Shown: piece after piece, positions 1-52,751 of the stretch | Numbering within the stretch: position 1 is the stretch's first letter | How the letters are laid out: every line of letters begins with the position of its first letter | From: a virus | Lineage: Duplodnaviria; Caudoviricetes | Reading direction: 5' to 3' (one strand) | IMG/VR virus record: IMGVR_UViG_3300044613_003454 | Coordinates: 1-52,813 of that record | Length of the DNA: 52,813 bases | Position numbers and translations under genes: made by a program | The notes under the pieces: model-generated | What the model saw: the letters and a program-made list of their open reading frames with translations, nothing else | Databases searched by the model: none | Told to the model about the DNA's origin: nothing

Positions 1-191
1 TGAACCGTTCCCGTAGTAGGCCAGGCAGAGGATCCCTAGCCAAGAATCAGTCAGAGTGACCACCTGATCCGCCCCGCGATTCAGTGGGGGTTCAGGGGTA
101 GCGGACCCCCCGAAGTACCACCGGGCCATCGCCTCGAAGACGGGGAGGGGTATCCGGTTCTCAGATCTTGGACCGGCCGGTCGGTCTTGGG
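1..191. repeat. Terminal direct repeat, left copy (circular overlap)
   Basis: 1-191 matches 52623-52813 except C64 vs T52686; lies inside coding sequence. Confidence 0.97.
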
Positions 192-2122
192 TCAGCGGTT
201 CTTGCATCGAGGATCTCGTTGATCTGGTGGGCGTTCAGCTGGGAGAGGTCGAGGCCTTCGCCGATGTGGTGGCCGTTCTCGTAGTAGTCACCGTCCCGCA
301 GCCGCTCGAACAGGGTCTTGTCGTGGTCTGCACCCGGGACCTTGGAGAGGCGGCCCCGGAGGACGAATTGGCTCATGGCGACCGCGTCCAGGCAGTCGTC
401 CTTTTCGAGGCCGCCGTCAGGGGCCTCGGGGTTGAAGGACTCGATCTGGTCGAAGAGGTGCCGCCAGGGAAGCTGGTCGCGACGCCAGAGGGGGAGCTTG
501 ATCTTCCCGTGCTCGAAGCGGAACTGGAGGCCGGCGATCTTGTCCTGCTTCTCCGTCATGCCGGGGTTGAGCTTGACGATCTTGGGCAGGTGGGCGGTGC
601 CGGCCATGTCGTTCGCACGGGTGGAGACGATGGAGGTCAGGGCGTTGAAGAGGGAGACGCCCTGGCGGATCACCTCCGGGTGGACGGTGGGGCACCTCCA
701 GCGGTCCGCCATGTCGAAGACGGCCCGCACCAGCTCGGACTCCTGCCCCTGCCGGGCCCAGAGGTCCAGGACGAACAGGTCGTTCTGGGGGGTCACCGCC
801 ATCAGGCAGCACACCTTGTAGTCGGAGTCGCTGCCCGAGGTGTGTGAGGTGTCGGCGGTCATGAAGGTGCGGCAGTAGGACTGGAGGAAGTCCTTGATCG
901 GCATCTTCTTCCGCTCGGTCACGTCACCCCGACGCTCGTCCCAGCAGATGTAGGCGGTCGAGTTGAGGGGACGGTCGATCCGGTCGTCGATCTCCTCGAA
1001 CCACCAGGCGTGCCGGTCGTCGAGCTCGCCAAAGAACGCGGAGTCCCCGTCGCCGGGGTTGGCGAGATACTCGGAGTTGAAGTTGGCGGAACCGATGGAC
1101 TCCCGGATCTCCTCCAGGGAGAGGGCTTCCTTGAAGCGGGGGCGGGTGACCGCCAACGAAAGGCGTTCCTCACGGGTGGTCGGCCACATGTCCGGCCAGC
1201 AGGACGAGAGGACACCGTCCTCCTCGATGGCGGCGGGGATCACGAGGCGGGACCACCGGTTGAAACGGGGGTCCTTCGCGCGGGCGCCCTCGGGAGTTTC
1301 CTCCAGCTGCATCGCGTGCCAGAGGTAGTGACGCTTCGAGACGAACGTGCCCACCCAATCCACGCCCGTGTCCGGGCGGGTGACCATGGGGATCACGATC
1401 TTGAAGAGGAGCTCGGACATGTACGCCCGCAGCACCGACATCGGGGTCGAGGCCTTCGGGTCGTACTCGGGGTCGTCGAGACGGTAGCGGCGGGGACGGC
1501 CACCTCGCTGCTTCGAGGAGGCGCTCAGGAGGCGGAGCCACGAGCCGTTGTTGAGGATCATGTGCTCCGTGGAGAAGGAGCCCTCGCCGCGACGGGGGAT
1601 GATCCGGCCGCCCTCAAACTCCGGGGCGAAATCGTCGTTCAGGCGTTGGTTATGGATCAGTTGCCGCTTGATCCGCTCGCCCACCTCGCGGGCGTTCGGG
1701 TGCGTGGAGGTCGCGTACACGAACGAGTAGGCCGGCCTCGTGACGAGGCGGAGCAGCATGTCCTTGCAGTTGAGGTACGACTTGGCGGAGCCTCGGGGGG
1801 CCACCGCGGCGGTCATGCGGTACGAGGCCCACTGGCGTAGGAGCACCCAGTGGAACTCAGGGGTCTCCAGGGGCGTGTCGTCGTAGAAGAGCGGATTGAT
1901 GTCCGCATCTTCATCGGGCCAGAGGTAGTAGCGATCAAACCACCATACCGAAGCGACCAGGTTGTCGCCGCGGGTGACTGGATTCTCGTCGAGCAAGAGC
2001 CACTGCCGGCATGCGTTGACGCGAGCCTGACGCTGACCGTCGTCGGTGAGCGTGTCATAGTCGGCCGGCAACGGGTAGTTGGGGTTGCCTTCCGCACGGG
2101 TCTCGATCCTCTTGACGGTCAT
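161..2122 (-). CDS. terL: Terminase large subunit
   Basis: Walker A-like APRGSAKS, Walker B-like YRLDDPE, RNase H-type nuclease acids (MTADTS..SDY, DDCLDA). Start set at ATG 2122, which overlaps the upstream stop (ATGA). Confidence 0.9.
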   Translation of the reverse strand: MTVKRIETRAEGNPNYPLPADYDTLTDDGQRQARVNACRQWLLLDENPVTRGDNLVASVWWFDRYYLWPDEDADINPLFYDDTPLETPEFHWVLLRQWASYRMTAAVAPRGSAKSYLNCKDMLLRLVTRPAYSFVYATSTHPNAREVGERIKRQLIHNQRLNDDFAPEFEGGRIIPRRGEGSFSTEHMILNNGSWLRLLSASSKQRGGRPRRYRLDDPEYDPKASTPMSVLRAYMSELLFKIVIPMVTRPDTGVDWVGTFVSKRHYLWHAMQLEETPEGARAKDPRFNRWSRLVIPAAIEEDGVLSSCWPDMWPTTREERLSLAVTRPRFKEALSLEEIRESIGSANFNSEYLANPGDGDSAFFGELDDRHAWWFEEIDDRIDRPLNSTAYICWDERRGDVTERKKMPIKDFLQSYCRTFMTADTSHTSGSDSDYKVCCLMAVTPQNDLFVLDLWARQGQESELVRAVFDMADRWRCPTVHPEVIRQGVSLFNALTSIVSTRANDMAGTAHLPKIVKLNPGMTEKQDKIAGLQFRFEHGKIKLPLWRRDQLPWRHLFDQIESFNPEAPDGGLEKDDCLDAVAMSQFVLRGRLSKVPGADHDKTLFERLRDGDYYENGHHIGEGLDLSQLNAHQINEILDARTADPRPTGRSKI

Positions 2123-2508
2123 TCGGTTTCCGGGCGGTACAGGAACATCGGGGTCCCGCTGCCCAGGTACGCACACTCGATGTTGTGCAGGAAGAACTCG
2201 TGGGCCTCCTCAAGGCCCATGTCCTCCGAGAGGACCTCGATGCAGCGGTCGGCGTCGTACACGGCCAGCGGAGGGGACCCCCACTGGACTGCGTAGCCGA
2301 TCAGGGCGTCGTCCATGTTGTCCACGAACAGGGCGTCCGGGTTCATCTCGGAGATGGCTTCCCGCAGACGCTGCCCGTAGTTGACGCGGCGGACCTGCTG
2401 GCGGAGATCCTTGATGGTCTCGATCGCCTCGTCGATGATCGTGTGATCCTCGGACGGGTAATACTCCCGCATCTCCTCCAGCCGCTTCTCGATGTCAGGG
2501 ACGGGCAT
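2119..2508 (-). CDS. Hypothetical phage protein
   Basis: 129 aa, coupled to terL; pattern DDALIG..AVYD..CIEVL..EEA.EFF..NI..AYLG..TP resembles a small phage family I recall. Confidence 0.75.
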   Translation of the reverse strand: MPVPDIEKRLEEMREYYPSEDHTIIDEAIETIKDLRQQVRRVNYGQRLREAISEMNPDALFVDNMDDALIGYAVQWGSPPLAVYDADRCIEVLSEDMGLEEAHEFFLHNIECAYLGSGTPMFLYRPETE

Positions 2509-4540: not shown

Positions 4541-4543
4541 GGA

Positions 4544-4657
4544 TCAGTACGCCTTCTTCTTGGCCTTCGGCATCGCCTTGCCGAACTTCGGCATGGGCTT
4601 GGCGCCGGCCTTCTTGGCGAACGGGTTCATCCCGGCCTTCATGGTCTTCTTCTTCAT
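4544..4657 (-). CDS. Tiny Lys/Met-rich basic protein (37 aa)
   Basis: MKKKTMKAGMNPFAKKAGAKPMPKFGKAMPKAKKKAY, preceded by an AAAGGAA RBS. Confidence 0.7.
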   Translation of the reverse strand: MKKKTMKAGMNPFAKKAGAKPMPKFGKAMPKAKKKAY

Positions 4658-4716: not shown

Positions 4717-4899
4717 TCAGTCCGGAAGGAGGAGGGAGATCCGGATCTCCACCTTCTTGGACTCCTCGCATTCCTCGCAGCCGTAGTCGCACTCCTCGCA
4801 CTCCCCCTCCTTGTCCAGCTTGCCGCCGCACTCGGGGCACTTCTTGGGGTCGTACTTGGACGGCTTGCGGGGCTTCGATTTCAGTGGGGGCATGTCCAT
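4717..4899 (-). CDS. Small zinc-ribbon-like protein (60 aa)
   Basis: CPEC..CEEC..CEEC with a basic N-terminus. Confidence 0.65.
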   Translation of the reverse strand: MDMPPLKSKPRKPSKYDPKKCPECGGKLDKEGECEECDYGCEECEESKKVEIRISLLLPD

Positions 4900-5418: not shown

Positions 5419-5856
5419 TCAGGTCCTTGGGTTGAGGAGGTTGAGCATCCGGCGGGCGGCGTCGCGGGATTCCTCGATTGTACGTTGCTCCAGTTCCACG
5501 CCGTCCATCACGCGGGCCTTGCAGACCTCCTCAACTAGCATCGGGAGATTCTGCTCGATGTACTCCTTGGGGACCCGGACCGCCTCGTTCTTCTTGCGGC
5601 CCTTCCGGATCTTGGAGCAGCCGGGCACCAGGAAGTCAGGCTGCCCGAACCGGCAGGCGGCCCAGAGTCCGATCCGGAACATGTGGAGGTTCACGAGGCA
5701 GTCCTCGTGGATGTGGAGGATGGGCACTCCGAGGTTGCGGCAGAGCTTCCGGAACGACGCCGGCGTCAGCTGCATCTCCTCGCAGAACCTGGACTCGTGG
5801 ACCCACCGGAGTCCACCGCCCAGGCTGAACGACATCCCTTTCCTCTTGCGACTCAA
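5419..5856 (-). CDS. Hypothetical protein, possible HTH/excisionase-like DNA binder
   Basis: 145 aa; FCEEMQLTPASFRKLCRNLGVP is HTH-like. Confidence 0.55.
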   Translation of the reverse strand: MSRKRKGMSFSLGGGLRWVHESRFCEEMQLTPASFRKLCRNLGVPILHIHEDCLVNLHMFRIGLWAACRFGQPDFLVPGCSKIRKGRKKNEAVRVPKEYIEQNLPMLVEEVCKARVMDGVELEQRTIEESRDAARRMLNLLNPRT

Positions 5857-6685: not shown

Positions 6686-9310
6686 TTACCGAGGGTTTGG
6701 AGCTGAGTCCCCCAGAATCCTGCTTGAAGCTCCAGGGTACTTGGCATCAAGGGCCTTGCGGAACAGCTCTCCGTTCTCTCCCTTGAGGGTGTTGGCGACC
6801 ATCTCGTTGAACTGTTCGTTGGTGATTCGACCGGCGGACACCGACTGCCATGCCCGGTCGTAGGTCTTCATCAGTTCAGTCGCCTTTTCTTCCGGGGAAA
6901 GACGCGCGAAACGATCAGCCCTGGGGGTACGGAGATCGACGTTCGGGACATCAGGTTCAGCCAGTTTGGAAAGGGCCTGGTCGGCGTCCCTGGCGGCCAT
7001 CCTTTCGGCCCTTGCCGCCGCATCAATTTGAGCCCTGGTCTGAAGTGCTGCTTCTGCGTTTTCGACAGCCGTTGACCGAAGCGTCCGGGAAGCGTTGGCC
7101 GGGTTTGCCGCAGCGGCAGATGCTGCCCGCTCAGCAGCAGCCCTGTTCACGTTGAGGCCTCTTGCGGCCTCATTGGCAAGCTCGCCGGCAACGGCGCCCC
7201 GGGTGCGGATGGCATCGGCCGCGACACCTGTTCCTTCGGAAGCAGCGAACCTTCCTACCGGACCGGAAGCCATCTCTCCGGCCATGGCCCCACGAGTGCG
7301 GATGGCGTCCGCCACGACTCCGGTTCCTTCGGAAGCCGCGAATCGTCCAGCAGGACCTGATGCTGCCCTTGCGGCTTCTTCAGCCCCGGCACCAATGGCA
7401 CGCCCAGTCCGTGCAGCAGGCCCGACAGCCGGAACGGCCCCGGCCGCCTCGAACGGATTCACTTGGCCTCCAGGACCTTGTGGAGCCATCGGGTCAAACC
7501 CGACAAACGGAATGAGGCCGAGAAGTAGGGCAGTCTTGTAATCGCCTTGGGCCATGGCCTCTTCAGCAGGGCTACGCACATTTCCCGGTCGATCATAGAA
7601 GCTCATCGGCATCCTTGACCCATCCCCGACGGCTTCAAGGGCTGCCGCCCTGGGCATCATGTCCACCCGTCCCCCGCCCATGTCAACGGGGACGACCTTG
7701 TTCATGTAGTTGGCATGGTCGATCTCCGCATAAATCCTTTTGGTCTCTGCGTCCTGTTGCAAAGTGTCGCCGGAATCAAGGACCACGTTACGAAGCGGCT
7801 CCGACTGTTGGACCACCTTGTTCATGTGGGCCGAAACGCGGGGCGTGGCACGGGGTCCGGAGACCGAAGTCAATCCAGCTTGCCGACGAAGATCATCCAT
7901 CCTCATTCGCTCTGCTTCGGCGTCCACCTCAACGGGGGTGAATGGGACCGGAGCCCGGGGAGGAAGGGTGAAACCGGATGGTTCCTGGGGAACACCCCTT
8001 GCATTCAACGGATTGGTCACCGCAGAAGAACTCGCAGCGAGATCCGCAAGACGACCAGTGGTCGTCGATGACATCATCCTGGAAAGGGCACTTGGCTGTG
8101 GGGAGGGAAGCGGGGGAGGAGAAGGACGGTAAGAAGGAATCTCCGGAACGCCGGAAGGAGAGACCAAGGAATCAAGAGGCCCAGGCATTCCGCCTTCACC
8201 TGCCCCCATCTTGGAGGGGGCGTAGGCCGGCGGGGGCTTGTCAGGGAATGCAGGCGTGAAAGCCTTTTGGGGAGGTTGAGGCGGCGGAACCGGCATGTAC
8301 GTGCCGTTGACATCCCCTGATGATGGCGGGTATGATTTGGGAGCCGGGTTGTCACGCTCCGAGATCATTTGAGCCGCAGCGGCTCGATCCATCTCGATTC
8401 GTTCACGCTCGGTCCCACCTGCGAACCGCTTCTTCACTCGCTCAAGAATCGCATCGTCACGAATCCGCTTAGCCGCAGCAGCCTCAGCGTCGTAGTCGGC
8501 CCTCGTCTTGGCAAGCTCCTCAGAAGCAGTCATCCCGCCGTTCAGGGGTTTCGCAGGATTCGCCTCCCCATAAGCACGTGAAGCAGCCTCCTCAGCGCTC
8601 AATGCCGCGAGGTAGTCCTTGTTCATCTTGACGATGTAGTCGTTGTCGGCCTTGACGGCGGCACGGTTCGCAGCCATCTGCTCTTCCGGTGAAGGGCCGG
8701 TGGGCTGGGCCGGGTTCTGCTCGCCGTACTGACGGCTTGCTTCCAGCTCCGTAGCCAGGTTGGCCCGGTATTGACGGGCCTGTTCGCGCTGTGTCTTCTT
8801 CTGCTCAATCTGCCTTATGAGGGCGTCCCTTTGACGAGCCTTTCTTGCATTCAAGCTTTCCCGGGCGTCATAGCCGGCGATCTGGTTGGCTTCCCACTGG
8901 GCAGCCCTCTTGAGCGAGAGGGGGTTGTTGGCAGCCTGGATGCGGGCTTGCTTGTGAGGCTCCAGGCTGGCGATGAACCTCGCACGTTCGGGGTTCATGG
9001 GTTGATCGTCCAAGACCGGCTTTCCGGTCTTGGGGTCCACCGCACTCGTAGCCGGGGCAGCAGCTGGGGCAGGAGCGGGAGCCGTCGGCGAGGTCGAGCT
9101 GGTGGACAACCCAGGAGGAACCTGGTCCGAGAGTTTCTTGGGCTTCTTCTCCTTCTTGGGACCCCCACTGGATGGAGGTGCCTGGCGCGGGCCCAGGTTG
9201 GGCATGAAGGCGTTGGGGTTGGAGAAGTCGATTCCTTGAGGGTCAAGGAACCAGCTCAGGGGATCCGCACCCTGTGGCTGCCATCTCTGCGGTGAATTGA
9301 ACTGGGGCAT
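6686..9310 (-). CDS. Large Pro/Ala-rich protein (874 aa), probable virion/ejection protein
   Basis: ATG 9310 with AGGAG RBS (the track's longer start overlaps the helicase); low complexity, coiled coil, internal repeats. Confidence 0.75.
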   Translation of the reverse strand: MPQFNSPQRWQPQGADPLSWFLDPQGIDFSNPNAFMPNLGPRQAPPSSGGPKKEKKPKKLSDQVPPGLSTSSTSPTAPAPAPAAAPATSAVDPKTGKPVLDDQPMNPERARFIASLEPHKQARIQAANNPLSLKRAAQWEANQIAGYDARESLNARKARQRDALIRQIEQKKTQREQARQYRANLATELEASRQYGEQNPAQPTGPSPEEQMAANRAAVKADNDYIVKMNKDYLAALSAEEAASRAYGEANPAKPLNGGMTASEELAKTRADYDAEAAAAKRIRDDAILERVKKRFAGGTERERIEMDRAAAAQMISERDNPAPKSYPPSSGDVNGTYMPVPPPQPPQKAFTPAFPDKPPPAYAPSKMGAGEGGMPGPLDSLVSPSGVPEIPSYRPSPPPLPSPQPSALSRMMSSTTTGRLADLAASSSAVTNPLNARGVPQEPSGFTLPPRAPVPFTPVEVDAEAERMRMDDLRRQAGLTSVSGPRATPRVSAHMNKVVQQSEPLRNVVLDSGDTLQQDAETKRIYAEIDHANYMNKVVPVDMGGGRVDMMPRAAALEAVGDGSRMPMSFYDRPGNVRSPAEEAMAQGDYKTALLLGLIPFVGFDPMAPQGPGGQVNPFEAAGAVPAVGPAARTGRAIGAGAEEAARAASGPAGRFAASEGTGVVADAIRTRGAMAGEMASGPVGRFAASEGTGVAADAIRTRGAVAGELANEAARGLNVNRAAAERAASAAAANPANASRTLRSTAVENAEAALQTRAQIDAAARAERMAARDADQALSKLAEPDVPNVDLRTPRADRFARLSPEEKATELMKTYDRAWQSVSAGRITNEQFNEMVANTLKGENGELFRKALDAKYPGASSRILGDSAPNPR
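7178..7363 (-). repeat. Two 93-bp (31-aa) tandem repeats in CDS
   Basis: ASGPAGRFAASEGTGVVADAIRTRGAMAGEM / ASGPVGRFAASEGTGVAADAIRTRGAVAGEL; GTTCCTTCGGAAGC at 7230 and 7323. Confidence 0.9.
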
Positions 9311-9355: not shown

Positions 9356-10762
9356 CAAAACCCGCTCCGAACTGTGGAGCCGATGAAGGTGGCGAGGGCG
9401 ATGCTGAAGGTGTGCTTCGAGGACGGCTGCGGCCTCAAGGAGGTGCAGGGCCGGCTCTTCGAGTGGTACGGGGGCAAGTGGGTCCAGCGGGACCGGCAGT
9501 GGCTGGAGGACGCGGTGTGGCGGTGGACCGAGGACCTGCACGTGAGCGACGACCAGAACGGGTTGGTCGTGACCAGGTACGGGCCCAATGAGCACAAGGT
9601 CAACGGGATCGTCCGGGCACTGGAGGCATTGTGCCGGGTCGCCAGGACGGAGGTGCCCCAGTGGCTGAGGTCCGATTGCGATGACCGCCTGTTGGACCCC
9701 CACTGTTCCGTGGCGTTCAGGGACGTGATCGTGGATGTGAGGAGGTCGGCCGCGGAGGGCAAGGTGGTGAGTGTCCCGCGGGGACCCGAGTGGTTCGATC
9801 CGTGCGTCGTGGACGTGGATCTGGACGAGGGGGCTGAGTGTCCCAGGTGGATGAAGTGCCTGGAGGAGTGGTCAGGCGGCGATACGCTCTGGAAAGAGCT
9901 GTTGCAGCGGTGGATGGGCTACTCGATGATGAGCCACCGCCGGTATGCGAAGTGGATGTTGTTTCATGGGAAGATCCGTGCCGGCAAGGGGACGATCAGC
10001 ACCGTGATGCGGTGGCTCGTGGGTGGGACCGGGTTCGTGGGCACCAGCCTGGATGAGATCGCGAGCAGCTTCGGGTTGGATGGGCTGGAGTTCGCCAGGG
10101 TGCTGTGCATCTCCGAGGTCAGTGAGCTGGATTCCAGGGAGGGGGAGGTGGCGGTCCGGGTGCTGAAGAACGTGCTTGGGCGGGATCCGATCAGCATCAA
10201 CGCGAAGTACAAGCGGCAGATGCGGAACGTGGTGGTGAGTGCGGCCCCGTGGGTCCAGGCGAACGAGATCCCTCAGCTGCCGAACAAGGGCCGGGGGCTG
10301 AGCGGCAAGATGCTGGTGCTGCCGTTCGTGAGGAGCTTCGAGGGCAAGGAGCAGCACGACCTGATGGACGTGCTGAAGGGGGAGCTGCCGGGGATCGCGG
10401 CCTGGGCGTTGAGGGGGGCGATCGCGTTGGAGGCGGCCCAGGACGGGGAGAAGTTCGTGCAGCCCGAGACCAGCGAGGCCGTGGTCAAGAGCTACCACCT
10501 CAAGAACAACCCGTTCGACTACTTCCTGGAGGCCCGGTTCGTGAGGAACCGGAACGGGTTCGTGGCCAACGAGCTCGTGCGGCGGGAGTGGAAGGACTGG
10601 TGCCGGTCCAATAACGTGAAGCTGCACGTGGCGGACAACCAGCTGGTCACGAAGTTGACCGAGGAGAGCAGTTGGGATCTCAGCAAGATCAGGAAAGGTA
10701 GCGACGGTACGCGGGGGATCGCGGGTCTTTCGCTGAAGAAGGACCAGGACGATGACCTATGA
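9338..10762 (+). CDS. D5/P4-primase-family SF3 DNA helicase (no obvious primase domain)
   Basis: D5_N-like region (CPRWMKCLEEW..LLQRWMGY), Walker A HGKIRAGKGT, Walker B CISE, motif C ANEIP. Confidence 0.85.
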   Translation: MVLGTQQNPLRTVEPMKVARAMLKVCFEDGCGLKEVQGRLFEWYGGKWVQRDRQWLEDAVWRWTEDLHVSDDQNGLVVTRYGPNEHKVNGIVRALEALCRVARTEVPQWLRSDCDDRLLDPHCSVAFRDVIVDVRRSAAEGKVVSVPRGPEWFDPCVVDVDLDEGAECPRWMKCLEEWSGGDTLWKELLQRWMGYSMMSHRRYAKWMLFHGKIRAGKGTISTVMRWLVGGTGFVGTSLDEIASSFGLDGLEFARVLCISEVSELDSREGEVAVRVLKNVLGRDPISINAKYKRQMRNVVVSAAPWVQANEIPQLPNKGRGLSGKMLVLPFVRSFEGKEQHDLMDVLKGELPGIAAWALRGAIALEAAQDGEKFVQPETSEAVVKSYHLKNNPFDYFLEARFVRNRNGFVANELVRREWKDWCRSNNVKLHVADNQLVTKLTEESSWDLSKIRKGSDGTRGIAGLSLKKDQDDDL

Positions 10763-14127: not shown

Positions 14128-14167
14128 GGGCCCCCACTGATCGGACGTTCCTTTCAGTGGGGGTCCC
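14128..14167. promoter_or_regulatory. Intergenic inverted pair of the CCCCCACTGA motif (operator/hairpin)
   Basis: GGGCCCCCACTGA-N13-TCAGTGGGGGTCCC. Confidence 0.7.
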
Positions 14168-15840: not shown

Positions 15841-15898
15841 CCCATCACCGGGGGCGGTGTGATCGCCCCCTCTTTCCACCCCCACTGAAAGGCAGCAC

Positions 15899-24255: not shown

Positions 24256-24258
24256 ACG

Positions 24259-25764: not shown

Positions 25765-25782
25765 ACCAGACCCCCACTGATC

Positions 25783-30834: not shown

Positions 30835-31205
30835 CGGCTCACCTCGATGAACTGATAATCAGGGTTCAAGAACGACAATCTCTCGGCCACCTTGCGATCC
30901 GCCATGGTTGCGAGCCCGATCAGGCTCACGTCCTCCTCCGCAAGATACCGCGACCACACCCACGTGCGGTCCTTCCGGCGGATGCTGGCGTCCCCCTCCT
31001 GGCTCCGCTCCCACAGGAACCGCCGCACGTCGGCCTTCGCCTTGAGCTCCTTCCCGGGGAGCACGATCGGATCCTTGGTCACGTTGACGAGGACCCCCAC
31101 TGATTCGCGACCAGTGGGGGTTAGCTTGACCAGGGCATAGCCACGGTTGTTGTGGCTTTCAACGACCTGCTGGGAGATCCGCTTCACGTCGGGGATCTGG
31201 ATCAT
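30831..31205 (-). CDS. Hypothetical protein
   Basis: 124 aa, coupled on both sides; contains an inverted motif pair. Confidence 0.65.
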   Translation of the reverse strand: MIQIPDVKRISQQVVESHNNRGYALVKLTPTGRESVGVLVNVTKDPIVLPGKELKAKADVRRFLWERSQEGDASIRRKDRTWVWSRYLAEEDVSLIGLATMADRKVAERLSFLNPDYQFIEVSR

Positions 31206-40643: not shown

Positions 40644-42568
40644 GGGTGGGTGGGATCCGTGGGCGGATCGGCCTCGCAAGCCGGCTTGATGATGTGCGGC
40701 TCGCAGCAGGGGTCCAGGGTCTCGGACTCGTTCTCGAACGCGAGGCAGAAGGTCCCGCAGCACGGGGTGGCATCGGTGCAGCCCTGGTTGATGGCGGCAC
40801 AGATGGACCGGTACGAGACCAGGGAATCGTAGACGTTGGGGACGTTGTTGGACACCGAGATCTTGTTGACCCGGTTGCACTCGTGGGGGCAGGTGCTGTC
40901 CCATGCCCCGCAGTTACGCCCGATCCCGTACAGGTACGCATGGTTGAGGATCGTGCAACTCGGCACGTGCCTCCACCCCACGGAGGCACAGGTGGACAGG
41001 GCCCCTGAATCCTCGAAGTCCACCCGCCCGTACACGAAGTGCAGGCCGTCGCAACTGGCCCCGATCATCACCGGCTGGCAAGTGCTGATCCCGCCCCCGT
41101 TCTCCGGGAATGCGTTGCAGTAGTCCTGCGGGGAGCACCCGATCTCCGGGCATATCGGTGCAGTCCCGCAGGGGCGGATCACGATGTTCGTGCAGTCCTC
41201 GCAGGTCTCGTCCGTACCCTGGCCGGGAGGGCAATTCTCGGTCACGTAGTCCCGGGGATACCCGGTGACGTTGAGGCAGTCTCCGCCGCAGATGTCCGAG
41301 TCGCGGCGGGGGACATTCGGGATCTGGTCTTCGGTGTACCCGTCCCAGCAGGCCCAGTCCCAGCCGCCCGGGCGGGCGTGGAAGTAGACCCATTGCCGCT
41401 CGGCCCAGAAGACGAAGTCGTCGTAGTCCTCGTCCCCGGGTTCCGGATACACCCCCGACCACGGGTCCACGATGCACGCCGTGGGTAGCTGGATGGTGAG
41501 ATCACGGGCGTCGAGCGGATCGAGCCGCTTCCAGGTTCCGTCACAGAACTCGAAGTACCGCTTCCTCACCGGACCCAGGTACGGCATGTCCTCGCACGCC
41601 GGCACCGTGCAGCCCGAATAGGCGGCGGGGAACATCGCCTTCAGGTCGATGAGCTCCTGGCGGGCCTCCTCTCTCCAGTCCTTCGCCTTCAAGTACCCGC
41701 CGTCAAACAACTTCTTCAAGACCTCCTGCGGTGGATCATTTTCGCTGCCAAGAGCTGCCACCAGCTCGCACCGTTCAGCATCCGTGATCACCGCGGTGTT
41801 GACCGCGTCGTCGAGGTCGAAGTCAAAGAGCGGCACCCCCGAGCAGGCGAAGATGAAGTGCTTGGGCACCACGCACTGCGGGGACAGCTCGTCCGGCGTG
41901 TTCGGGATGGTCAGTGGGGGAGATGGGTTCTGGCCGGACGGGCAGTCGTCGAAGGTCCACCAGTGCTCGGGATGCACCACCGCGATCAGGTGCTTGTACA
42001 GCGTGCCGGGGTAGACGGTGTTGTACTCACACAGCGGATCGGGTTGCCAGCCGTCGCACAGCACGATGGCCCCCCCGGCATGGCACAGGATGTCCACCAG
42101 CCACCAGTGCGATGGGTGATCCTCCATCCAGGTCTTTTGCCACGGGCTCAGGTTGTGGCCCACGCCGTCCGGGTCGCACGCACAGTTGGTGTACGGCAGG
42201 GTGCAGCAGTCGGTAGCGGTGGCGCTCTCGTCGCACGCACTGCACCGTTTCGTGCCGAACGGCGTGTACTGCGAGATGGCCGGCACGTTCACCAGGAAGT
42301 ACCGGTCCCGGTACGTGTACAGGGTGCGGAACGTGGGGGCGGCATACTCGGTGGTACGGCAGCAGAAGAGCGCGCAGTCGTACGCCCCTTCGGGCGGGGA
42401 CAGGGCGCAACAGTTGCTGGAGTACGTCACCGCTCCCGGTCGCTCGATCTCCAGGACCAGGCTCTCGTTGGGTCCGTGGCAGCAACCGGCGTTCTCGTCG
42501 ATCACGGCCCCCGAGATGCAGGGGTCGCAGATCTCCTGGTTGCAGCAGCACTCCTTCTTCGAGGTCAC
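40634..42568 (-). CDS. Very Cys-rich acidic protein (644 aa)
   Basis: About 55 Cys by hand count, with CC/CCC clusters. Confidence 0.8.
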   Translation of the reverse strand: MTSKKECCCNQEICDPCISGAVIDENAGCCHGPNESLVLEIERPGAVTYSSNCCALSPPEGAYDCALFCCRTTEYAAPTFRTLYTYRDRYFLVNVPAISQYTPFGTKRCSACDESATATDCCTLPYTNCACDPDGVGHNLSPWQKTWMEDHPSHWWLVDILCHAGGAIVLCDGWQPDPLCEYNTVYPGTLYKHLIAVVHPEHWWTFDDCPSGQNPSPPLTIPNTPDELSPQCVVPKHFIFACSGVPLFDFDLDDAVNTAVITDAERCELVAALGSENDPPQEVLKKLFDGGYLKAKDWREEARQELIDLKAMFPAAYSGCTVPACEDMPYLGPVRKRYFEFCDGTWKRLDPLDARDLTIQLPTACIVDPWSGVYPEPGDEDYDDFVFWAERQWVYFHARPGGWDWACWDGYTEDQIPNVPRRDSDICGGDCLNVTGYPRDYVTENCPPGQGTDETCEDCTNIVIRPCGTAPICPEIGCSPQDYCNAFPENGGGISTCQPVMIGASCDGLHFVYGRVDFEDSGALSTCASVGWRHVPSCTILNHAYLYGIGRNCGAWDSTCPHECNRVNKISVSNNVPNVYDSLVSYRSICAAINQGCTDATPCCGTFCLAFENESETLDPCCEPHIIKPACEADPPTDPTHPCL

Positions 42569-43425
42569 GGGCAGGCCCCGTCGATCGTGTTGTCGGACTC
42601 GAACACGTATCGACCGTTGTCGGCACGGTGCATGAGCACGACCACGTTGAAGGTTCCCCCACTGATCGTCGTGCCCACCGCGATGGGCTTGAAGGCCTCG
42701 TCGAGCTCGATCTTGTAGCCCGGGCCGGCGAAACCGGTGGTGGCACCGGAGGGGATGGCGTTCACGGATTCGCGCACGTTCAAGGCGTAGTCCTGGGTCA
42801 AGGTGCCGTAGCGACCGTTCACCTTCACGGTGAACCCGTCACCGGCTCCGTATCCTGGCAAGGTTACCTCCTGCCAGGAATACTTCCAGCGGTAGATGTT
42901 CGGGGAGAATGACTGGTGCCCGGTGATCTGGGCCATGAAGGAGCCCTGGGTGTTGCCGCTGCCGGGGCCGCCGTTCTGCCCGTTGTTCCCGTCCACGTCG
43001 TCTTCGTTGCGGTCCGAATCGCACCCGGACTCCTGGCACTCCCCAAGATCGTGGAATGCACCATCCGGGTCCGGCACGCACTGGTCATCGACGCAGGCAT
43101 ACCGGACCTCTTCCCCCGGCCCCGCCCCGTTGCCGTCTCCCGATCCGCCCTCGCCAGGTCCTGCGGTCCCGCCTCCAGGACCACCCGGAAGACCGGGGTT
43201 CACCAACGGTGGAACCGCGGAACCCACGGTGTTGGTCCCGTAGTTGTTGAAGACGGACGGCCCCGTCTGCACGTACCCGGTCATCGACGGGAACTCCAGG
43301 CCGGCCACGAGCGTGACCTGCTGGAACCCCCTGGACCTCAAGCCCTTGATCCCGTCAGACAGCCCAGGAGTGACCTTGTCGAACTCCCTGTTCGCCAGGT
43401 CCTGCTGGTTGGGATCAGCACTCAC
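42565..43425 (-). CDS. Tail-associated protein with Gly-rich linker and small Cys module
   Basis: 286 aa; YACVDDQCVPDPDGAFHDLGECQESGC; RWKYSWQEV. Confidence 0.7.
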   Translation of the reverse strand: MSADPNQQDLANREFDKVTPGLSDGIKGLRSRGFQQVTLVAGLEFPSMTGYVQTGPSVFNNYGTNTVGSAVPPLVNPGLPGGPGGGTAGPGEGGSGDGNGAGPGEEVRYACVDDQCVPDPDGAFHDLGECQESGCDSDRNEDDVDGNNGQNGGPGSGNTQGSFMAQITGHQSFSPNIYRWKYSWQEVTLPGYGAGDGFTVKVNGRYGTLTQDYALNVRESVNAIPSGATTGFAGPGYKIELDEAFKPIAVGTTISGGTFNVVVLMHRADNGRYVFESDNTIDGACP

Positions 43426-44527: not shown

Positions 44528-47232
44528 TAGGCACCTGTTGGCGGAGGCAGGAAGCGGAGTTCGACGGCAAAGAGTTCTGCGTCCCCGGTGAGGGTGTCCC
44601 CGGTACCGCTGACATCGCTGGAGTCCCGGTACACCTTGAGACGGAACGCATCCCCGGCCGTCAACAGGTCGATCTTGTTGTACGGGAAGGTGATCTCGGT
44701 GACCGACGCGATTCCAGTTGAGAGGCTGGCCGCAGTCCTGGTTTCCTGGGAGCCCTCGCTGTCGAAGCTGTCGCTGCCGATGTTGGTGGCGATGATCTTC
44801 TGAAAGGTCGCCCCCCACCGAACATACTCTGTAGACGCGGGAAAACCGGAGGGAACCCAATGCACCCTCACCACAACCACGTCCCCGGATGCCGGCACCG
44901 TGAAACCGTGCGGCATCACGCCGACGAAGATGGCGGCCTCATTGGTCGCCCCGTCATCGAAGTCCAGCACCGCGATGCTGTTGCGGGTGTCGAGCGTGGC
45001 GAAGTTGGACGCTGGGGGCTGGTTGTCCAGGGGGGTCCAAACCTCGATGGTGTCCGTACCCGCCCTGCTCCTGTCCACCCACTCAAGACCGGCCCCCGCA
45101 TTGTTCACGCGAAGGATCTGGTAAGCCGTCCCGATCGAGAGGATCCCTGCGGTATCAGGTCCGGTACCTACCGCAAGATCTCCTGCTGCGTTCCAGATCG
45201 TGTCGGTGGCCACGGATCCACCGCCTCCGCCGGTGTTATCAGTTGCCGGGGCCCAAGCGATTCCGTTCCACTTGATCACCTCATTCAGGGCGGCACCGCT
45301 CTGGGTGAGGTCAGAAAGGGAGTGGGTGTGCGAGGCAGCCGCCACGCCCGCGTTGGCGATGGTGCGGTTCTTCCAGACTCCCGCCGTGTTGTCCCACGAC
45401 AGCAGGTCCTTCTCGGCCTTTCCGCTGATCAGAACGTCGCTGAGCTCCTCCAGCTCCTGGTAGTTCTGGATGTCGATGAAGATCGACCCATCCGGAGAAC
45501 CCGCTCGCTTCACGAGGAACCCTACGCGGACACCATGCTTGGGTGCCGCCGGCAAGGTGGGGGTGGTCGCACCCGCGGTGGTGGACAGGTAGAACGGATC
45601 GCCATCCACGGCCGGATAGGCAGCCGTGTTCGTGGTCAGACCGGTGAGGTAGCCGAAGACCTGGATCAGGCCGGTGGTGTTGGACGGGATGTCCTCGGCC
45701 GCGACGCCGATCGTGTTGGCACTGGTGGACTCAAGGTCCGCATCAGCCAGCTTCACCTTGGCCTCGGTCGCGGCGTGCGAGCCGCTGACGTAGACCACCT
45801 GGCCCTTGTTGATCTGGAAGGCCTCGTCGTTCCTCGCCCTCTTGTACAGGGCCTGCCCCTGCTTGAGGTTCACGTTGGAAGTGAGCCCGAGGGACACCGT
45901 GTTGTAGGTCGAGTCCCAATACTGCCGGCCCACCGCATCAGTGGGGGACACCACACCGGTGTTCAGGTCCAGCAGGTCCACGTTGACTTCGGTGACCGTA
46001 ATCGCCGACGGCAACCCCACCGTGACGGTGGTGCCGCTCACCGACGTTTCAACCTCGTTCGCGGTGCCGGCCACCGTGATGGTGCCGCTCGTGGTGATCG
46101 CCGTTCCGGTGCCGCTGTCCGCGGCCGGGGTGATCGAGGTGACCGTGCCGGAACCGCCGGGGCCGCCGGAAACCGTGCCGGGCTCCCACGTCGAAGTGGT
46201 GGAGTTCCAGACCAGGGCCTGCCCGTTCGTGGGGGCCGTGGACGCCACCGAGCGGCCCTGGAGGCCGTCCACCGTGGGGTTGGGGTAGGTGCCACCGAGA
46301 TCCCCGCCAGCGGCCCCGCACGGGGCGCACGTGCCCGTGGTAGCGGCAGAACCCGAGGTCCCGATCGTGTAGCCCCCCACTGGTTCGACGGTCGCGGTGA
46401 ACCGCTTGCCGATGCGGGAGTTCATGTTCCCGATCGTGTCGTGGGAGGTCTTGATCGCCTGCTTGTACGCAAGCGCCAGGTTCTGCATCGTGACCTGGTT
46501 GATCTTGCGGCCCACGCCCGCACGCATGGCGGCGGAGATGGCGATCGCGTCCGTCATGGGCTCCATGAGGAACGGGATCACCTCGTAGGTGTACGTGCCG
46601 GCGGCGTTGGCCGGAGGATTCCGGAGCGTCATGATCCCGGTGATCGGGTCGTGGCTCGTGATGATCAGCTCGTCGGTGATGTTCGCACCGAGGATCCGGA
46701 TGTAGGACCCGGCGTAGGCGTTGTCCCGCTTGTCGAGCGACCCGATGTTCGGGGTGCCCAGTGTAAAGGTGCCGTTCGCGTTGATCGTCCCCAGGGTGCC
46801 GTGGTGGGCGGCGATGTCCCCGCTGGGGACGTACATCACCAGATAGTTCTTGGACTCGGAGGGAGTGGGCCGGAACGCGAGGAGGTTGCCCTCCAGGGCC
46901 CAGCCGGGGCCGGCCAGGTGGAACTCGTTGCGGGGCCGGAAGTCCTCGGTGAACCAGCCGGTGTTCGGGTCCTGCACGCCGATGCGGAGGACCTGCTTCA
47001 CCGACGGCGGCAGCTTGTAGTACGTGGTGCCGTTGACCACCGAGATGGTCAACATGCAGATGATCTGGTTGTCCGCCATCATCGACACGCGGCCGATCAC
47101 GTCGGACATCGCGCTCGACAGGAAGAACCGGACCAGGTAGTTGTCGTCGTACTTCGCGTCGATGTCCGGGTCATCGAGGTAATGCCGGACCTTCTCGCAG
47201 TACGTCTTGATGATTGAACCGGATGAGTGCAT
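44527..47232 (-). CDS. Head-tail adaptor-like domain fused to tail-fibre modules
   Basis: N-terminus VRHYLDD..ISVVNGTTYYKLP resembles podoviral adaptors; then AGGDLGGTYPNPTV, GQALVWN, HTHSLSDL fibre motifs. Confidence 0.7.
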   Translation of the reverse strand: MHSSGSIIKTYCEKVRHYLDDPDIDAKYDDNYLVRFFLSSAMSDVIGRVSMMADNQIICMLTISVVNGTTYYKLPPSVKQVLRIGVQDPNTGWFTEDFRPRNEFHLAGPGWALEGNLLAFRPTPSESKNYLVMYVPSGDIAAHHGTLGTINANGTFTLGTPNIGSLDKRDNAYAGSYIRILGANITDELIITSHDPITGIMTLRNPPANAAGTYTYEVIPFLMEPMTDAIAISAAMRAGVGRKINQVTMQNLALAYKQAIKTSHDTIGNMNSRIGKRFTATVEPVGGYTIGTSGSAATTGTCAPCGAAGGDLGGTYPNPTVDGLQGRSVASTAPTNGQALVWNSTTSTWEPGTVSGGPGGSGTVTSITPAADSGTGTAITTSGTITVAGTANEVETSVSGTTVTVGLPSAITVTEVNVDLLDLNTGVVSPTDAVGRQYWDSTYNTVSLGLTSNVNLKQGQALYKRARNDEAFQINKGQVVYVSGSHAATEAKVKLADADLESTSANTIGVAAEDIPSNTTGLIQVFGYLTGLTTNTAAYPAVDGDPFYLSTTAGATTPTLPAAPKHGVRVGFLVKRAGSPDGSIFIDIQNYQELEELSDVLISGKAEKDLLSWDNTAGVWKNRTIANAGVAAASHTHSLSDLTQSGAALNEVIKWNGIAWAPATDNTGGGGGSVATDTIWNAAGDLAVGTGPDTAGILSIGTAYQILRVNNAGAGLEWVDRSRAGTDTIEVWTPLDNQPPASNFATLDTRNSIAVLDFDDGATNEAAIFVGVMPHGFTVPASGDVVVVRVHWVPSGFPASTEYVRWGATFQKIIATNIGSDSFDSEGSQETRTAASLSTGIASVTEITFPYNKIDLLTAGDAFRLKVYRDSSDVSGTGDTLTGDAELFAVELRFLPPPTGA

Positions 47233-49540: not shown

Positions 49541-50464
49541 TCAGATTGCGGATTCGGTCGGAGACGAGGCCAGAGCCCGCTTGATCGTGTCGCTCGCGAA
49601 GCTCTTGACCTGCGACTCGATGTCGCTGATGGTGGCTCCGGGCTTGTACTCAGGATCAGGGGCCGGCTTGGAGCGCAGAATCTCCTGCGCGTCGAGTCCA
49701 GTGACCGTTTCCGACGACCGACCCAGCTTGTCGATGTCGCCGATTACCGACCGGAAGGTGCCCAGGATGGGCTCAGTCGCCTTGTCAACCTCTTCCGCCA
49801 TCCAGGCATCCTCGAAGGTGCCTGCCGCGGCCCGCCGGGTCTGCATCCGTTCCAGGGCCTGACGCTCAAGCTGGGAGCGCAGGGCCTGTTCGGCCTGCTT
49901 CACGCCCTCGTCGCCGCGGAGCGAACGGGAGGTCTCCAGTAGCTTCTGGAGTTCGGGGTTCGTTTTCAAGACGCGATCCAGGTTGGAGTTGAGGTTCTCC
50001 CTCAGCTCACGGACTCGCATCTTGTGGAGTTCGGCACGCTGGGCCTCAAGCTGGGCCCGCAGTTCTTCCGCCTTGTCGTCAGCCATGGTGTCCTCTTCGT
50101 CACCCCCACTGATCTCCGTGTCCTGGAGAGCCTCGTCGGGGATCTCGATTTCCTCGATCTCTTCTTCGGTGTCGCCTTCGTCGGCGGGTTGCGATTCCTG
50201 GATCCGGGACCGGGTGGCCTGGATGTACTGGTCGATCTGCTCGTCCTCGTAGCCGAGGTTGATGAGCACGTTGCGGACGGCGGTCTCCTTGCGGTCCTGC
50301 GGAACGTCCGCCTGGAACAGGGTGCCGACCTCCTCAAGGTCCTTCTGGAGCGTGTCGTTGATCTCGATGGCGTCCTTGAGATCCTTGTGGCTCTGGATGA
50401 GTTCGGCCACCGAGATCTCGGTGCCGTCCTCAAGCGTGATCTTGGTCTGCGGGTCGAGGTCCAT
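49541..50464 (-). CDS. Capsid scaffolding protein
   Basis: Acidic coiled coil; KITLEDGTEISVAELIQS; between portal and capsid. Confidence 0.75.
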   Translation of the reverse strand: MDLDPQTKITLEDGTEISVAELIQSHKDLKDAIEINDTLQKDLEEVGTLFQADVPQDRKETAVRNVLINLGYEDEQIDQYIQATRSRIQESQPADEGDTEEEIEEIEIPDEALQDTEISGGDEEDTMADDKAEELRAQLEAQRAELHKMRVRELRENLNSNLDRVLKTNPELQKLLETSRSLRGDEGVKQAEQALRSQLERQALERMQTRRAAAGTFEDAWMAEEVDKATEPILGTFRSVIGDIDKLGRSSETVTGLDAQEILRSKPAPDPEYKPGATISDIESQVKSFASDTIKRALASSPTESAI

Positions 50465-52483: not shown

Positions 52484-52751
52484 TCTTCTGTGCCTTCTTG
52501 GCTGCGTATCCGCCAGGGATCATCTTGACCCGTTCGCGGATCTGGGCGTATTGGACCACGGTTTCGCGTGGGGGGACATCGTTCGCGGGGATTCCCCCAC
52601 TGATTCCGACGGACGGGTGGCGTGAACCGTTCCCGTAGTAGGCCAGGCAGAGGATCCCTAGCCAAGAATCAGTCAGAGTGACCACTTGATCCGCCCCGCG
52701 ATTCAGTGGGGGTTCAGGGGTAGCGGACCCCCCGAAGTACCACCGGGCCAT
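52332..52751 (-). CDS. Hypothetical protein spanning the circular junction
   Basis: Frame stays open through the repeat to ATG 207 (MQEPLTQDRP..); lies between terL and portal. Confidence 0.5.
   Translation of the reverse strand: MARWYFGGSATPEPPLNRGADQVVTLTDSWLGILCLAYYGNGSRHPSVGISGGIPANDVPPRETVVQYAQIRERVKMIPGGYAAKKAQKNGNRPDQADQGSDGAGPDHRRARGEGMEQPGVPQGDVAGGPVLPDGGPSV

What the first reader, a model, noticed from the sequence alone, without database searches (positions are those of the whole stretch)
81..52712. Genome-wide CCCCCACTGA motif written into coding sequence: candidate undescribed binding-site system
Seen: at least 19 exact copies (13 on +, 6 on -) and 8 variants differing only at the last base; 12 of the exact copies extend to CCCCCACTGAT. 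A rough zero-order expectation at about 66% GC is about 0.2 exact copies on both strands. Most copies are inside genes, read in different frames and strands (PPL, PTD, ISGG, SVG, QWG), and use codons such as CCA, AGT and ACT that look atypical for these genes, so selection appears to act on the DNA. Orientation does not follow transcription, unlike mycobacteriophage stoperators. Inference: sites for a phage- or host-encoded protein that organises, protects, ejects, packages or regulates the whole genome. Candidate binders are the tandem HTH (19538), sigma-like (21979), wHTH (23902) and 5419 proteins.
Basis: partly seen in the sequence, partly recalled or inferred. Interest (0 to 1): 0.9.

Follow-up and report, generated by a model that had tools for sequence, protein, structure and literature searches.

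The report
Polar G-rich 9-mer across phage genome
An uncultured freshwater phage carries 27 exact copies of one 9-base word, kept by selection inside its genes, mostly pointing one way and evenly spaced, which looks most like a Chi-type signal for a DNA-tracking enzyme, though what reads it is unknown.

Summary
The core is the 9-mer CCCCCACTG, with 27 unique copies in a 52.6-kb phage contig (0.5 expected). Single-mismatch variants sit at background. Twenty copies lie inside genes, against 1.9 under a synonymous-codon shuffle.

All 43 close relatives on the portal tree keep the word at 0.3-0.9 per kb, although their GC ranges from 48 to 67%. Deeper clades use one-step dialects: CCCCCACTC, CCCCACCA[GA]C (which contains the E. 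coli Chi octamer), TCCCCCCA and GGGTCTCCC.

- A genome-wide strand polarity of about 2:1, equal in the oppositely transcribed halves.
- Regular spacing of copies on the same strand.
- An excess of close convergent pairs.

These point to an enzyme that tracks along DNA, not to a regulator's operator set.

Best reading (about 0.4): Chi-like sites that restrain a RecBCD/AddAB-type nuclease, as in Chi-rich lambdoid phages. Rivals are nickase sites, as in phage tf, and a phage-encoded reader. The host is unknown. No enrichment was seen in 151 Cyanobacteriota genomes or in two MAGs that hold such phage contigs. I found no phage paper on the motif in the full-text searches run.

The parts
82..90 (-). 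motif copy (CCCCCACTG), intergenic between TerL end and portal start, inside the terminal repeat
2278..2286 (+). motif copy, antisense in gene 2119-2508(-), read QWG
4882..4890 (-). motif copy, sense in gene 4717-4899(-), read PPL
9162..9170 (+). motif copy in the atypical-composition region
9697..9705 (+). motif copy at the start of the primase/helicase gene; identical in G001-G004
14131..14139 (+). motif copy, intergenic; left arm of a convergent pair (24 nt start to start)
14155..14163 (-). motif copy, right arm of that pair
15879..15887 (+). motif copy, intergenic, 11 nt upstream of the ATG at 15899
18894..18902 (+). motif copy in the DNA polymerase A gene (PPL); relatives G001, G002 and G004 keep PPL with other codons
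20288..20296 (-). motif copy in the ERCC4 nuclease gene; identical in G001-G004
22321..22329 (+). motif copy in gene 21979-22521(+)
23075..23083 (+). motif copy in the PD-(D/E)XK nuclease gene; identical in G001-G004
25771..25779 (+). motif copy, intergenic; identical in G001-G004
26187..26195 (+). motif copy, intergenic by my calls
31094..31102 (+). motif copy, left arm of a convergent pair (18 nt) inside gene 30831-31205(-); pair kept in G003 and G004
31112..31120 (-). motif copy, right arm of that pair
33191..33199 (+). motif copy in gene 31202-33631(-)
37066..37074 (+). motif copy in the 1231-aa gene; convergent with 37192
37192..37200 (-). motif copy in the 1231-aa gene
39255..39263 (+). 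motif copy in the 1231-aa gene
39931..39939 (-). motif copy in the 1231-aa gene
41912..41920 (-). motif copy in gene 40634-42568(-)
42656..42664 (+). motif copy in gene 42565-43425(-)
45939..45947 (-). motif copy in the 901-aa gene
46374..46382 (+). motif copy in the 901-aa gene
50103..50111 (+). motif copy in gene 49541-50464(-); kept in G001-G004 although the overlapped first codon encodes I, T, P, F or S
52594..52602 (+). motif copy upstream of the portal gene; convergent (110 nt) with 52704/82; pair present in many relatives
52704..52712 (-). duplicate of the copy at 82-90 in the terminal repeat
52623..52813 (.). 191-bp repeat of 1-191 (1 mismatch); probably an assembly overlap of a circular or permuted map
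161..2122 (-). terminase large subunit gene, the reference for polarity
   Evidence: phrog_38, E 6.9e-39
5419..5835 (-).
22499..25161 (+). phage recombination-type genes: PD-(D/E)XK nuclease, a small ORF, AAA_24 ATPase

Best explanation
The word, written on its G-rich strand as 5'-CAGTGGGGG-3' and often flanked as CAGTGGGGGT, is a Chi-like polar signal. It is read on one strand by a helicase-nuclease that enters phage DNA at a free end or break and tracks along it. By precedent this is most likely the host's RecBCD/AddAB/AdnAB-type enzyme. Meeting the word from the correct side would switch the enzyme from degradation to recombination. Linear, concatemeric or broken phage DNA would then lose at most a few kb and be channelled into recombination-dependent replication or circularisation. 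Shown here: extreme, exact enrichment; selection at the DNA level; conservation and turnover in relatives; clade-specific dialects; a constant genome-wide polarity; regular same-strand spacing.
For: (1) Enrichment survives a codon-aware null: 20 coding copies against 1.9 expected. It is exact: mismatch variants have 0-2 copies.
(2) Five relatives, four of them estimated complete and one 84% complete, hold 35, 35, 24, 32 and 26 copies, against 3, 5, 1, 5 and 1 of the reversed control word. All 43 clade-I rows on the portal tree carry it at 0.34-0.89 per kb.
(3) Selection acts on DNA. At 50103 the motif base is kept while the codon encodes I, T, P, F or S. Six to seven sites are identical in four relatives at 69-76% nucleotide identity. 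Other sites turn over while each genome keeps 24-35 copies.
(4) Polarity. With genomes co-oriented, the G-rich form lies on the strand that encodes terminase, portal and structural genes in 18:9, 23:12, 23:12, 18:6, 22:10, 19:9, 10:8 and 21:8 sites, across three dialects. Pooled over seven of these genomes, the bias is the same in the early half (66:29) and the late half (78:37), which are transcribed in opposite directions. Relative to the terminase genes, this is the orientation of active Chi in the lambdoid phage LLS (20:3); phage MD8 carries 32 sites in the presumably active orientation and none opposite (PMC12315714, passages).
(5) Majority-strand copies are more evenly spaced than random in 5 of 7 genomes (CV 0.50-0.63 against 0.93, P<=0.014). 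Close same-strand pairs are depleted (4 against 13.2 expected). This fits a signal whose value is the distance to the next site.
(6) Four of the dialects are G-rich like known Chi words. The clade III dialect, G[CT]TGGTGGG(G), contains the E. coli Chi octamer 26 times against 6.3 expected, with the same polarity (18:8). It also matches the H. influenzae form GNTGGTGG quoted in PMC8022716.
(7) The counting method recovers Chi in E. coli K-12: 1008 against 240 for the control word.
Against: - The host is unknown, so the defining test (the same word enriched and polarised in the host chromosome) could not be run.
- No enrichment was seen in 151 sampled Cyanobacteriota genomes. The highest count was 114 copies in 3.8 Mb.
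- No enrichment was seen in the rest of the two MAGs that contain such phage contigs. G012 has 18 copies against 31 for the control word. In G011, 36 of 78 copies of its dialect sit on three phage-like contigs and the remainder equals the control.
- The word has 9-11 constrained bases, longer than any Chi quoted in the papers read (5-8 nt).
- The 2:1 bias is much weaker than 20:3 or 32:0.
- The Chi-rich lambdoid class lacks a recombination module, whereas this phage encodes PD-(D/E)XK, AAA_24 and ERCC4 proteins.
- The same word persists in phages of 48-67% GC that have near-identical portals. This needs a host group that shares one Chi across that GC range.
- The clade V word GGGTCTCCC is not G-rich.
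- The excess of close convergent pairs (19 against 6.7 expected) is not predicted by Chi biology.
Confidence: 0.4

Rival explanations
1. The copies are recognition sites of a phage-encoded site-specific nickase. They would give localized single-strand interruptions in packaged DNA, as in T5, the phiKMV-like phages and Pseudomonas phage tf.
For: Phage tf has 14 nicks in an exact 9-nt consensus (11 copies of one 9-mer in 46 kb). It has few single-substitution variants. Its relatives PaP3, LUZ24 and phiMR299-2 carry a one-base dialect at similar positions, and the authors propose co-evolution of the nickase and its sites (PMC3517423, passages). The word here is likewise an exact 9-mer with background-level variants, one-base dialects between clades and partly conserved positions. 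Its strand bias is independent of transcription, and the enrichment is lineage-specific.
Against: All described nick systems place every site on one strand. Here a third of the sites are on the other strand, and those are also conserved and evenly spaced. Close convergent pairs 16-36 nt apart recur and would become staggered double-strand breaks if both were nicked. No nickase or HNH domain was found in the Pfam or PHROG scans of the gene products submitted. The ends of 81 related contigs are no nearer to motifs than random cut points (5 of 81 within 100 nt, against 6% expected), although this is a weak test.
Confidence: 0.17
2. A phage-encoded reader uses the word as a polar self-mark. Candidates are the terminase small-subunit-like or winged-helix-like 5419 family, the DUF5906 primase-helicase, or the phage's own nuclease-recombinase module. 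The mark could serve directional loading of the packaging motor (KOPS-like), priming on the displaced strand in rolling-circle replication, or control of the phage's own exonuclease.
For: The word is tied to the phage lineage and not to base composition. It is the same 9-mer at 48-67% GC among phages with near-identical portals. Dialects change 7 times on the tree, where 5 is the minimum possible, and they share a CCCCAC core. In 64 of 64 unrelated viral loci seeded with the hairpin pair there is at most one extra copy, whereas 15 of the 16 loci related to this phage have extra copies. The rest of the two MAGs lacks the word. The 5419 family is present in all clades, sits a few genes upstream of TerL, and has a confidently modelled N-terminal domain with HTH-like topology. 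Spacing of about 2-3 kb on the major strand and polarity suit priming or motor guidance.
Against: I found no precedent for a phage-encoded Chi- or KOPS-type system or for a 9-nt primase site in the papers read. The fold search gave no significant match (best E 0.16), so DNA binding by 5419 is unproven. A 2:1 bias is weak for a motor-guiding signal. No relative lacks both the motif and a core gene, so there is no natural knock-out.
Confidence: 0.27
3. The copies are operator-like sites of a transcription factor or nucleoid-organising protein. Orientation would be irrelevant.
For: Seven of 27 copies are intergenic where about 7% of the genome is non-coding. One lies 11 nt upstream of a start codon. 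Inverted pairs could seat dimers.
Against: The constant strand polarity in both transcription halves and the depletion of close same-strand pairs are not expected for non-polar binding. Pair spacing varies from 16 to 225 nt. Most sites are deep inside genes. Three of the four proposed binders are confined or nearly confined to clade I. The exactness of the word is atypical for operators.
Confidence: 0.08
4. The word is a DNA-uptake-type or other host-wide repeat carried passively, or a compositional or codon artefact.
For: The word resembles DUS/USS in length, exactness, dialects and hairpin pairs (recalled knowledge, not checked in a paper here).
Against: It survives dinucleotide and codon-aware nulls. 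No host-type genome examined is enriched. The polarity and regular spacing are not features I know of for uptake sequences.
Confidence: 0.05

Closest known systems
Chi-rich phages (E. coli lambdoid phage LLS and relatives; P. aeruginosa phage MD8), PMC12315714; Chi content against phage recombination genes, PMC3784561 (search listing only)
   Same: There are tens of copies of one short G-rich word in a genome of about 50 kb, written into coding sequence. The polarity relative to the terminase genes is the same. One dialect here contains GCTGGTGG.
   Different: The word has 9-11 constrained bases, not 8. The bias is 2:1, not 7:1 or more. Copies are spread evenly and not clustered at one end. 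This phage has its own recombination-type genes. The host is unknown and no host enrichment was shown.
Nick-consensus sites of phage tf and LUZ24-like phages, phiKMV-like phages and T5 (PMC3517423)
   Same: An exact 9-mer with almost no mismatch variants. One-base dialects in related phages at partly conserved positions. A strand bias unrelated to transcription.
   Different: Those sites number 4-14 per genome and all lie on one strand. Here there are 24-35 on both strands, with close convergent pairs. No nicks were shown.
Stoperators of Cluster A mycobacteriophages (recalled, not read here)
   Same: Many copies of an asymmetric short site across a phage genome, including inside genes.
   Different: Stoperator orientation follows transcription and they serve an immunity repressor of temperate phages. 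Here the orientation is the same in both oppositely transcribed halves, and no integrase or repressor domain was found in the scans run.
DNA uptake sequences (Neisseria DUS, Pasteurellaceae USS; recalled)
   Same: An exact 9-12-mer, about one per 1-2 kb. Dialects differ by single bases around a fixed core. Inverted pairs form hairpins.
   Different: Those are properties of the bacterial chromosome, read by competence machinery. Here the word is confined to one phage lineage in every comparison made and is strand-polar.
KOPS/SRS motor-guiding octamers (FtsK, SpoIIIE; recalled)
   Same: G-rich, polar and spread along the replicon.
   Different: As I recall it, the skew of KOPS is far stronger than 2:1. 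They are chromosomal and read by a host translocase. No phage example is known to me.

Membership tests
Chi sites carried by phages | One short oligomer strongly over-represented in the phage genome | tested here: met
   27 against 0.5 expected (order-3 Markov); 20 coding copies against 1.9 (codon shuffle)
Chi sites carried by phages | Strand polarity consistent with an enzyme entering from the end left free by terminase | tested here: inconclusive
   The G-rich form is on the terminase-coding strand in 67-75% of sites in 7 genomes, the same sense as LLS and MD8. But the bias is weak, and the physical ends and packaging direction are unknown.
Chi sites carried by phages | The same word over-represented and polarised in the host core genome | not testable with these tools
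   The host is unknown. There is no enrichment in 151 Cyanobacteriota genomes or 2 MAGs. Other phyla could not be sampled.
Chi sites carried by phages | Length 5-8 nt, as in known Chi words | tested here: not met
   Nine invariant positions plus biased flanks (A at -1 in 106 of 155 sites; R at +1 in 121 of 155). Known words are quoted in PMC8022716.
Chi sites carried by phages | Recognition by RecBCD/AddAB with attenuation of the nuclease | not testable with these tools
   Needs biochemistry
Chi-rich lambdoid class (PMC12315714) | The phage lacks a recombination module | tested here: not met
   PD-(D/E)XK (1e-10), AAA_24 (8e-9) and ERCC4 (1.4e-7) domains are present
Localized-nick consensus sites (T5, phiKMV-like, tf) | Exact consensus repeated in the genome, with dialects in relatives | tested here: met
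Localized-nick consensus sites (T5, phiKMV-like, tf) | All sites on one strand | tested here: not met
   18:9 here; 23:12, 23:12, 18:6 and 22:10 in relatives
Localized-nick consensus sites (T5, phiKMV-like, tf) | Physical nicks in virion DNA | not testable with these tools
   Only assembled contigs of public runs were available, with no raw reads
Stoperators | Orientation co-linear with transcription | tested here: not met
   The bias is the same in the + transcribed half (66:29) and the - transcribed half (78:37)
DNA uptake sequences | High density throughout the bacterial host chromosome | tested here: inconclusive
   Not seen in any bacterial genome examined, but the host is unknown
KOPS/SRS | Very strong skew toward one direction per replichore | tested here: not met
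   The skew is only about 2:1, with no switch point along the map

The most novel reading that the evidence does not exclude
The motif family is a phage-autonomous polar self-mark. A core phage protein, not the host, would read a clade-specific G-rich 9-10-mer on one strand. Candidates are the universal 5419 winged-helix-like family next to the terminase genes, the primase-helicase, or the phage nuclease module. Reader and word would co-evolve by single-base steps while the phages move between hosts of 48-67% GC. This would be the first phage-encoded Chi- or KOPS-like guidance system.
Probability: 0.27. Interest if true: 0.88.

Novelty: new variant of a known kind. Interest (0 to 1): 0.7.

Why it matters
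If the word is the host's Chi, these abundant uncultured lake, estuary and marine phages reveal the recombination hotspot words of bacteria for which no Chi is known. PMC8022716 found none for most Proteobacteria. The dialects would then become a sequence-only tool for assigning hosts. Either way, the word is a simple and very specific marker of this phage lineage, and it shows strong selection on DNA words inside protein-coding genes.

Tried and rejected
- Cultured relatives: megablast of 20 kb and tblastn of the portal-like protein against 50,697 phage records gave nothing. TerL gave only 27% identity over 28% of its length.
- Host search: one scan of genome contigs with the portal profile found only two MAG contigs. 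The window has no tRNA. The protein atlas gave viruses only for the GP88 protein and no hit for the 1005-aa ORF.
- Cyanobacterial host idea: HIP1 is not enriched, and 151 Cyanobacteriota genomes show no excess of the word.
- Metagenome scan for two same-strand copies within 30 nt: 80 loci were read, none related to the phage. Multi-copy loci are short tandem repeats.
- Public runs: 24 rows were listed. All are kept as assembled contigs, and no RNA holder is listed.
- Laying four runs on 14001-34000 showed strains at 85-99% likeness, but only 40 of 1168 variant places were printed. None falls in the twelve 9-mers and one is adjacent (14164). About 0.2 would be expected, so this is uninformative. 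No read starts or ends can be seen in contigs.
- Contig ends against motifs: no excess.
- Rfam: no family. The terminator scan does not call the motif hairpins, apart from one weak match at 26179-26195.
- Fold search of the 5419 model: no significant match.
- GATC looked enriched on a zero-order estimate, but trinucleotide composition explains it.
- The E. coli Chi octamer is at expectation in clade I (11 against 8.1).
- Literature searches by the word or by phenomenon found no phage paper on it. Supplements were not consulted. Those of PMC8022716 and PMC12315714 list per-species motifs and could bear on host assignment.
Full report
**What the window is.** The window is a whole virus record. 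Its first and last 191 bases repeat with one mismatch, which leaves 52,622 unique bases. Relatives' contigs with terminal repeats (99-248 nt) start at different places on the same gene map. The repeats are therefore best read as overlaps of a circular assembly, and the physical ends are unknown.

By my own codon-model gene calls, about 93% of the sequence is coding. Genes run leftward in 161-5835 and include the terminase large subunit at 161-2122 (phrog_38, E 6.9e-39). They run rightward in 9374-26452 and leftward in 26449-52483. The rightward block holds these genes:
- a DUF5906 primase/helicase
- a UDG-family protein
- DNA polymerase A
- an ERCC4 nuclease
- a PD-(D/E)XK nuclease
- an AAA_24 ATPase

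The leftward block starts with a 672-aa, highly conserved protein right after TerL. I take this to be the portal, but that is an inference: it has no Pfam, PHROG or PDB match.

No cultured phage is close. Public runs that hold the sequence are lake, freshwater, estuary and aquaculture metagenomes.

**The observation.** CCCCCACTGA occurs 20 times, against 0.30 in shuffles. One copy is the terminal duplicate. The constrained core is CCCCCACTG, with 27 unique copies (18+, 9-) and an order-3 Markov expectation of 0.5. Every one of the 27 single-mismatch variants has 0-2 copies.

Pooling 155 sites from five genomes adds a preference for A before the word (106 of 155) and for A or G after it (121 of 155).

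Twenty copies are inside genes, in all three frames and both orientations, and seven are intergenic. Shuffling synonymous codons within each gene leaves 1.9 coding copies on average, with a maximum of 6 in 500 shuffles. The word uses CCA, AGT and ACT, each only 4% of its codon family.

**Relatives.** A scan of IMG/VR with the 672-aa protein gave 72 loci. The word is present in 56 of them. The 16 without it are among the distant relatives, which have 41-57% identity.

Five relatives, four of them estimated complete and one 84% complete, hold 35, 35, 24, 32 and 26 copies, against 3, 5, 1, 5 and 1 of the reversed control word.

On a quick maximum-likelihood portal tree (61 rows; the careful search did not finish), all 43 rows with this word form one clade (SH-aLRT 100). 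Within that clade, neighbours with near-identical portals differ in GC from 48 to 67%.

Of the 27 sites in the window, six or seven are base-for-base identical in all four complete relatives, at 69-76% overall nucleotide identity. Others are lineage-specific. Three codon-level cases are telling:
- At 50103 the relatives encode T, P, F or S where the window has I, yet all keep the C that belongs to the word.
- At 18894 three relatives keep Pro-Pro-Leu with other codons and have no word.
- Codon identity given the same amino acid is 0.69 in motif codons against 0.56 in flanks.

So relatives neither simply inherit the word through protein conservation nor randomise it. Sites are conserved or replaced while the number per genome stays at 24-35.

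**Dialects.** Deeper clades carry their own words at similar density:
- CCCCCACTC: 28 copies in a 41%-GC genome and 18 in a 35-kb fragment, against 1 each for the control word.
- (C)CCCACCA[GA]C, which is G[CT]TGGTGGG(G) on the G-rich strand: 29 copies.
- TCCCCCCA(C/A).
- CCCCCAGAA: only 10 copies.
- GGGTCTCCC: 26 copies.

Four of these share the core CCCCAC with the window's word. The labels need 7 changes on the tree, where 5 is the minimum.

The third dialect contains the E. coli Chi octamer 26 times, against 6.3 expected. In clade I that octamer is at expectation (11 against 8.1).

- *Polarity.* When eight genomes are co-oriented by synteny, the C-rich form is on the same strand in 18:9, 23:12, 23:12, 18:6, 22:10, 19:9, 10:8 and 21:8 sites. 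Pooled over seven of these genomes, the bias is equal in the rightward-transcribed early half (66:29) and the leftward-transcribed late half (78:37). Each has a binomial P of about 2e-4, although sites shared by descent are not independent. The polarity therefore belongs to the whole genome, not to transcription. The G-rich form lies mostly on the strand that encodes terminase, portal and virion genes.
- *Spacing.* Majority-strand copies are more regular than random in 5 of 7 genomes (CV 0.50-0.63, P<=0.014; the other two give 0.69 and 0.79). Several minority-strand sets are regular too.
- *Close pairs.* Among neighbours within 250 nt in eight genomes, convergent pairs (C-rich then G-rich) number 19 against 6.7 expected. 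Same-strand majority pairs number 4 against 13.2. Divergent pairs number 5 against 6.7. Some pairs are orthologous, for example the pair in the roughly 300-nt TerL-portal spacer and the pair inside gene 30831-31205.

**Is it the host's word or the phage's?** This is not settled.

In 64 of 64 unrelated viral loci seeded with a convergent pair there is at most one further copy, whereas 15 of the 16 loci that share proteins with the window have further copies. Two bacterial MAGs contain such phage contigs. In one the word is at control level (18 against 31). In the other, 36 of 78 copies of its dialect sit on three phage-like contigs and the rest equals the control. However, binning is poor evidence of host identity.

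The 151 Cyanobacteriota genomes show no excess, while the same counting recovers Chi in E. coli (1008 against 240). Other phyla could not be sampled. A metagenome scan for same-strand pairs found only unrelated tandem repeats.

**Candidate readers.** The 5419 family is found in every clade, typically a few genes upstream of TerL.

Its alignment-based model has an N-terminal beta-beta-alpha-alpha-beta-beta-alpha domain at a pLDDT of about 80-85. No PDB match is significant (best E 0.16). Low-ranking hits include several winged-helix proteins. It is a candidate DNA binder, possibly a terminase small subunit, and nothing more can be said.

**Comparison with known systems.** Two described phenomena come close.
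- *Chi-rich phages.* Lambdoid phage LLS has 23 Chi sites, 20 in the active orientation (Chi on the top strand with the terminase genes at the left). Pseudomonas phage MD8 has 32 sites in the presumably active orientation and none opposite. Sixty-two lambdoid phages without a recombination module have 8 or more active Chi sites (PMC12315714, passages). The word here shares over-representation in coding DNA, G-richness and the sense of polarity relative to terminase. It differs in length, in the weakness of the bias, in its even spread, and in the phage having recombination-type genes.
- *Nick-consensus sites.* Phage tf has 14 nicks in 5'-TACTRTGMC-3', all on one strand, with a one-base dialect in LUZ24, PaP3 and phiMR299-2 at similar positions (PMC3517423, passages). 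The word here shares exactness, dialects and positional conservation. It fails the one-strand rule, and its close convergent pairs would be double-strand breaks if nicked.

Stoperators fail on orientation. Uptake sequences and KOPS resemble it in some formal respects (recalled), but they are chromosomal systems.

**Verdict.** It is a lineage-wide, clade-specific, exact, strand-polar and evenly spaced word under selection at the DNA level.

A signal for an enzyme that tracks along one strand fits best. By precedent I rank a Chi-like function read by a host helicase-nuclease first (about 0.4). A phage-encoded polar reader comes second (about 0.27), nickase sites third (about 0.17), operator-type binding fourth (about 0.08) and passive or uptake-type repeats last (about 0.05).

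I found no paper describing this word in a phage. I rate it a new variant of a known kind, with interest 0.7.

Noticed in passing
window 1-191 and 52623-52813: A 191-bp terminal direct repeat with one mismatch. It falls in the TerL-portal spacer. Relatives' contig repeats (99-248 nt) fall elsewhere on the map, so it is probably an assembly overlap and not a true DTR.
   Followed up: partly
window 5853-9703: A region of atypical composition (third-position GC 0.61-0.64, against 0.80-0.94 in neighbouring genes). It has long ORFs of 263 and 1005 aa on the - strand, a 93-nt tandem pair at 7176-7361, and only patchy similarity in relatives. It has no Pfam, PHROG or atlas match. It is either recently acquired DNA or mis-called genes.
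   Followed up: partly
clade I loci, e.g. L041 (48% GC) against L062 and L037 (64%); L019 (67%) against L027 (58%): Phages with nearly identical portal proteins differ by up to 16 points of GC. This suggests rapid shifts of composition or of host within one lineage.
   Followed up: no
G011 contigs C7, C18 and C72 (MAG labelled Myxococcales): Three contigs of this bacterial bin carry the phage dialect TCCCCCCA at phage-like density (11, 15 and 10 copies). They probably form one phage genome binned with the MAG. On C72 the word extends to include CCCCCACTG.
   Followed up: partly
L050 and L051: Two short clade II loci lack the clade's word at the usual density but have 6 copies each of the palindrome CCCCGGGG in 6-9 kb.
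   Followed up: no
window 43886-44500 and 36542-40237: A Laminin_G_3/pentaxin-like domain protein (E 3e-22) and a CBM96 module (E 2e-10) in a 1231-aa protein among the virion genes. They are likely receptor- or glycan-binding parts. The 901-aa protein has a weak, sub-threshold match to the SU10 adaptor family.
   Followed up: no
window 14186-14896: A GP88-family protein (PF17338, E 5e-24). It is the only gene with a confident link to a family seen mainly in other phages.
   Followed up: partly
unrelated IMG/VR loci of about 53% GC, e.g. L104, L106, L110, L111, L122, L134: Many unrelated viral contigs of similar GC share a single convergent pair of the same two 9-mers, probably one conserved hairpin in another phage family.
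   Followed up: no
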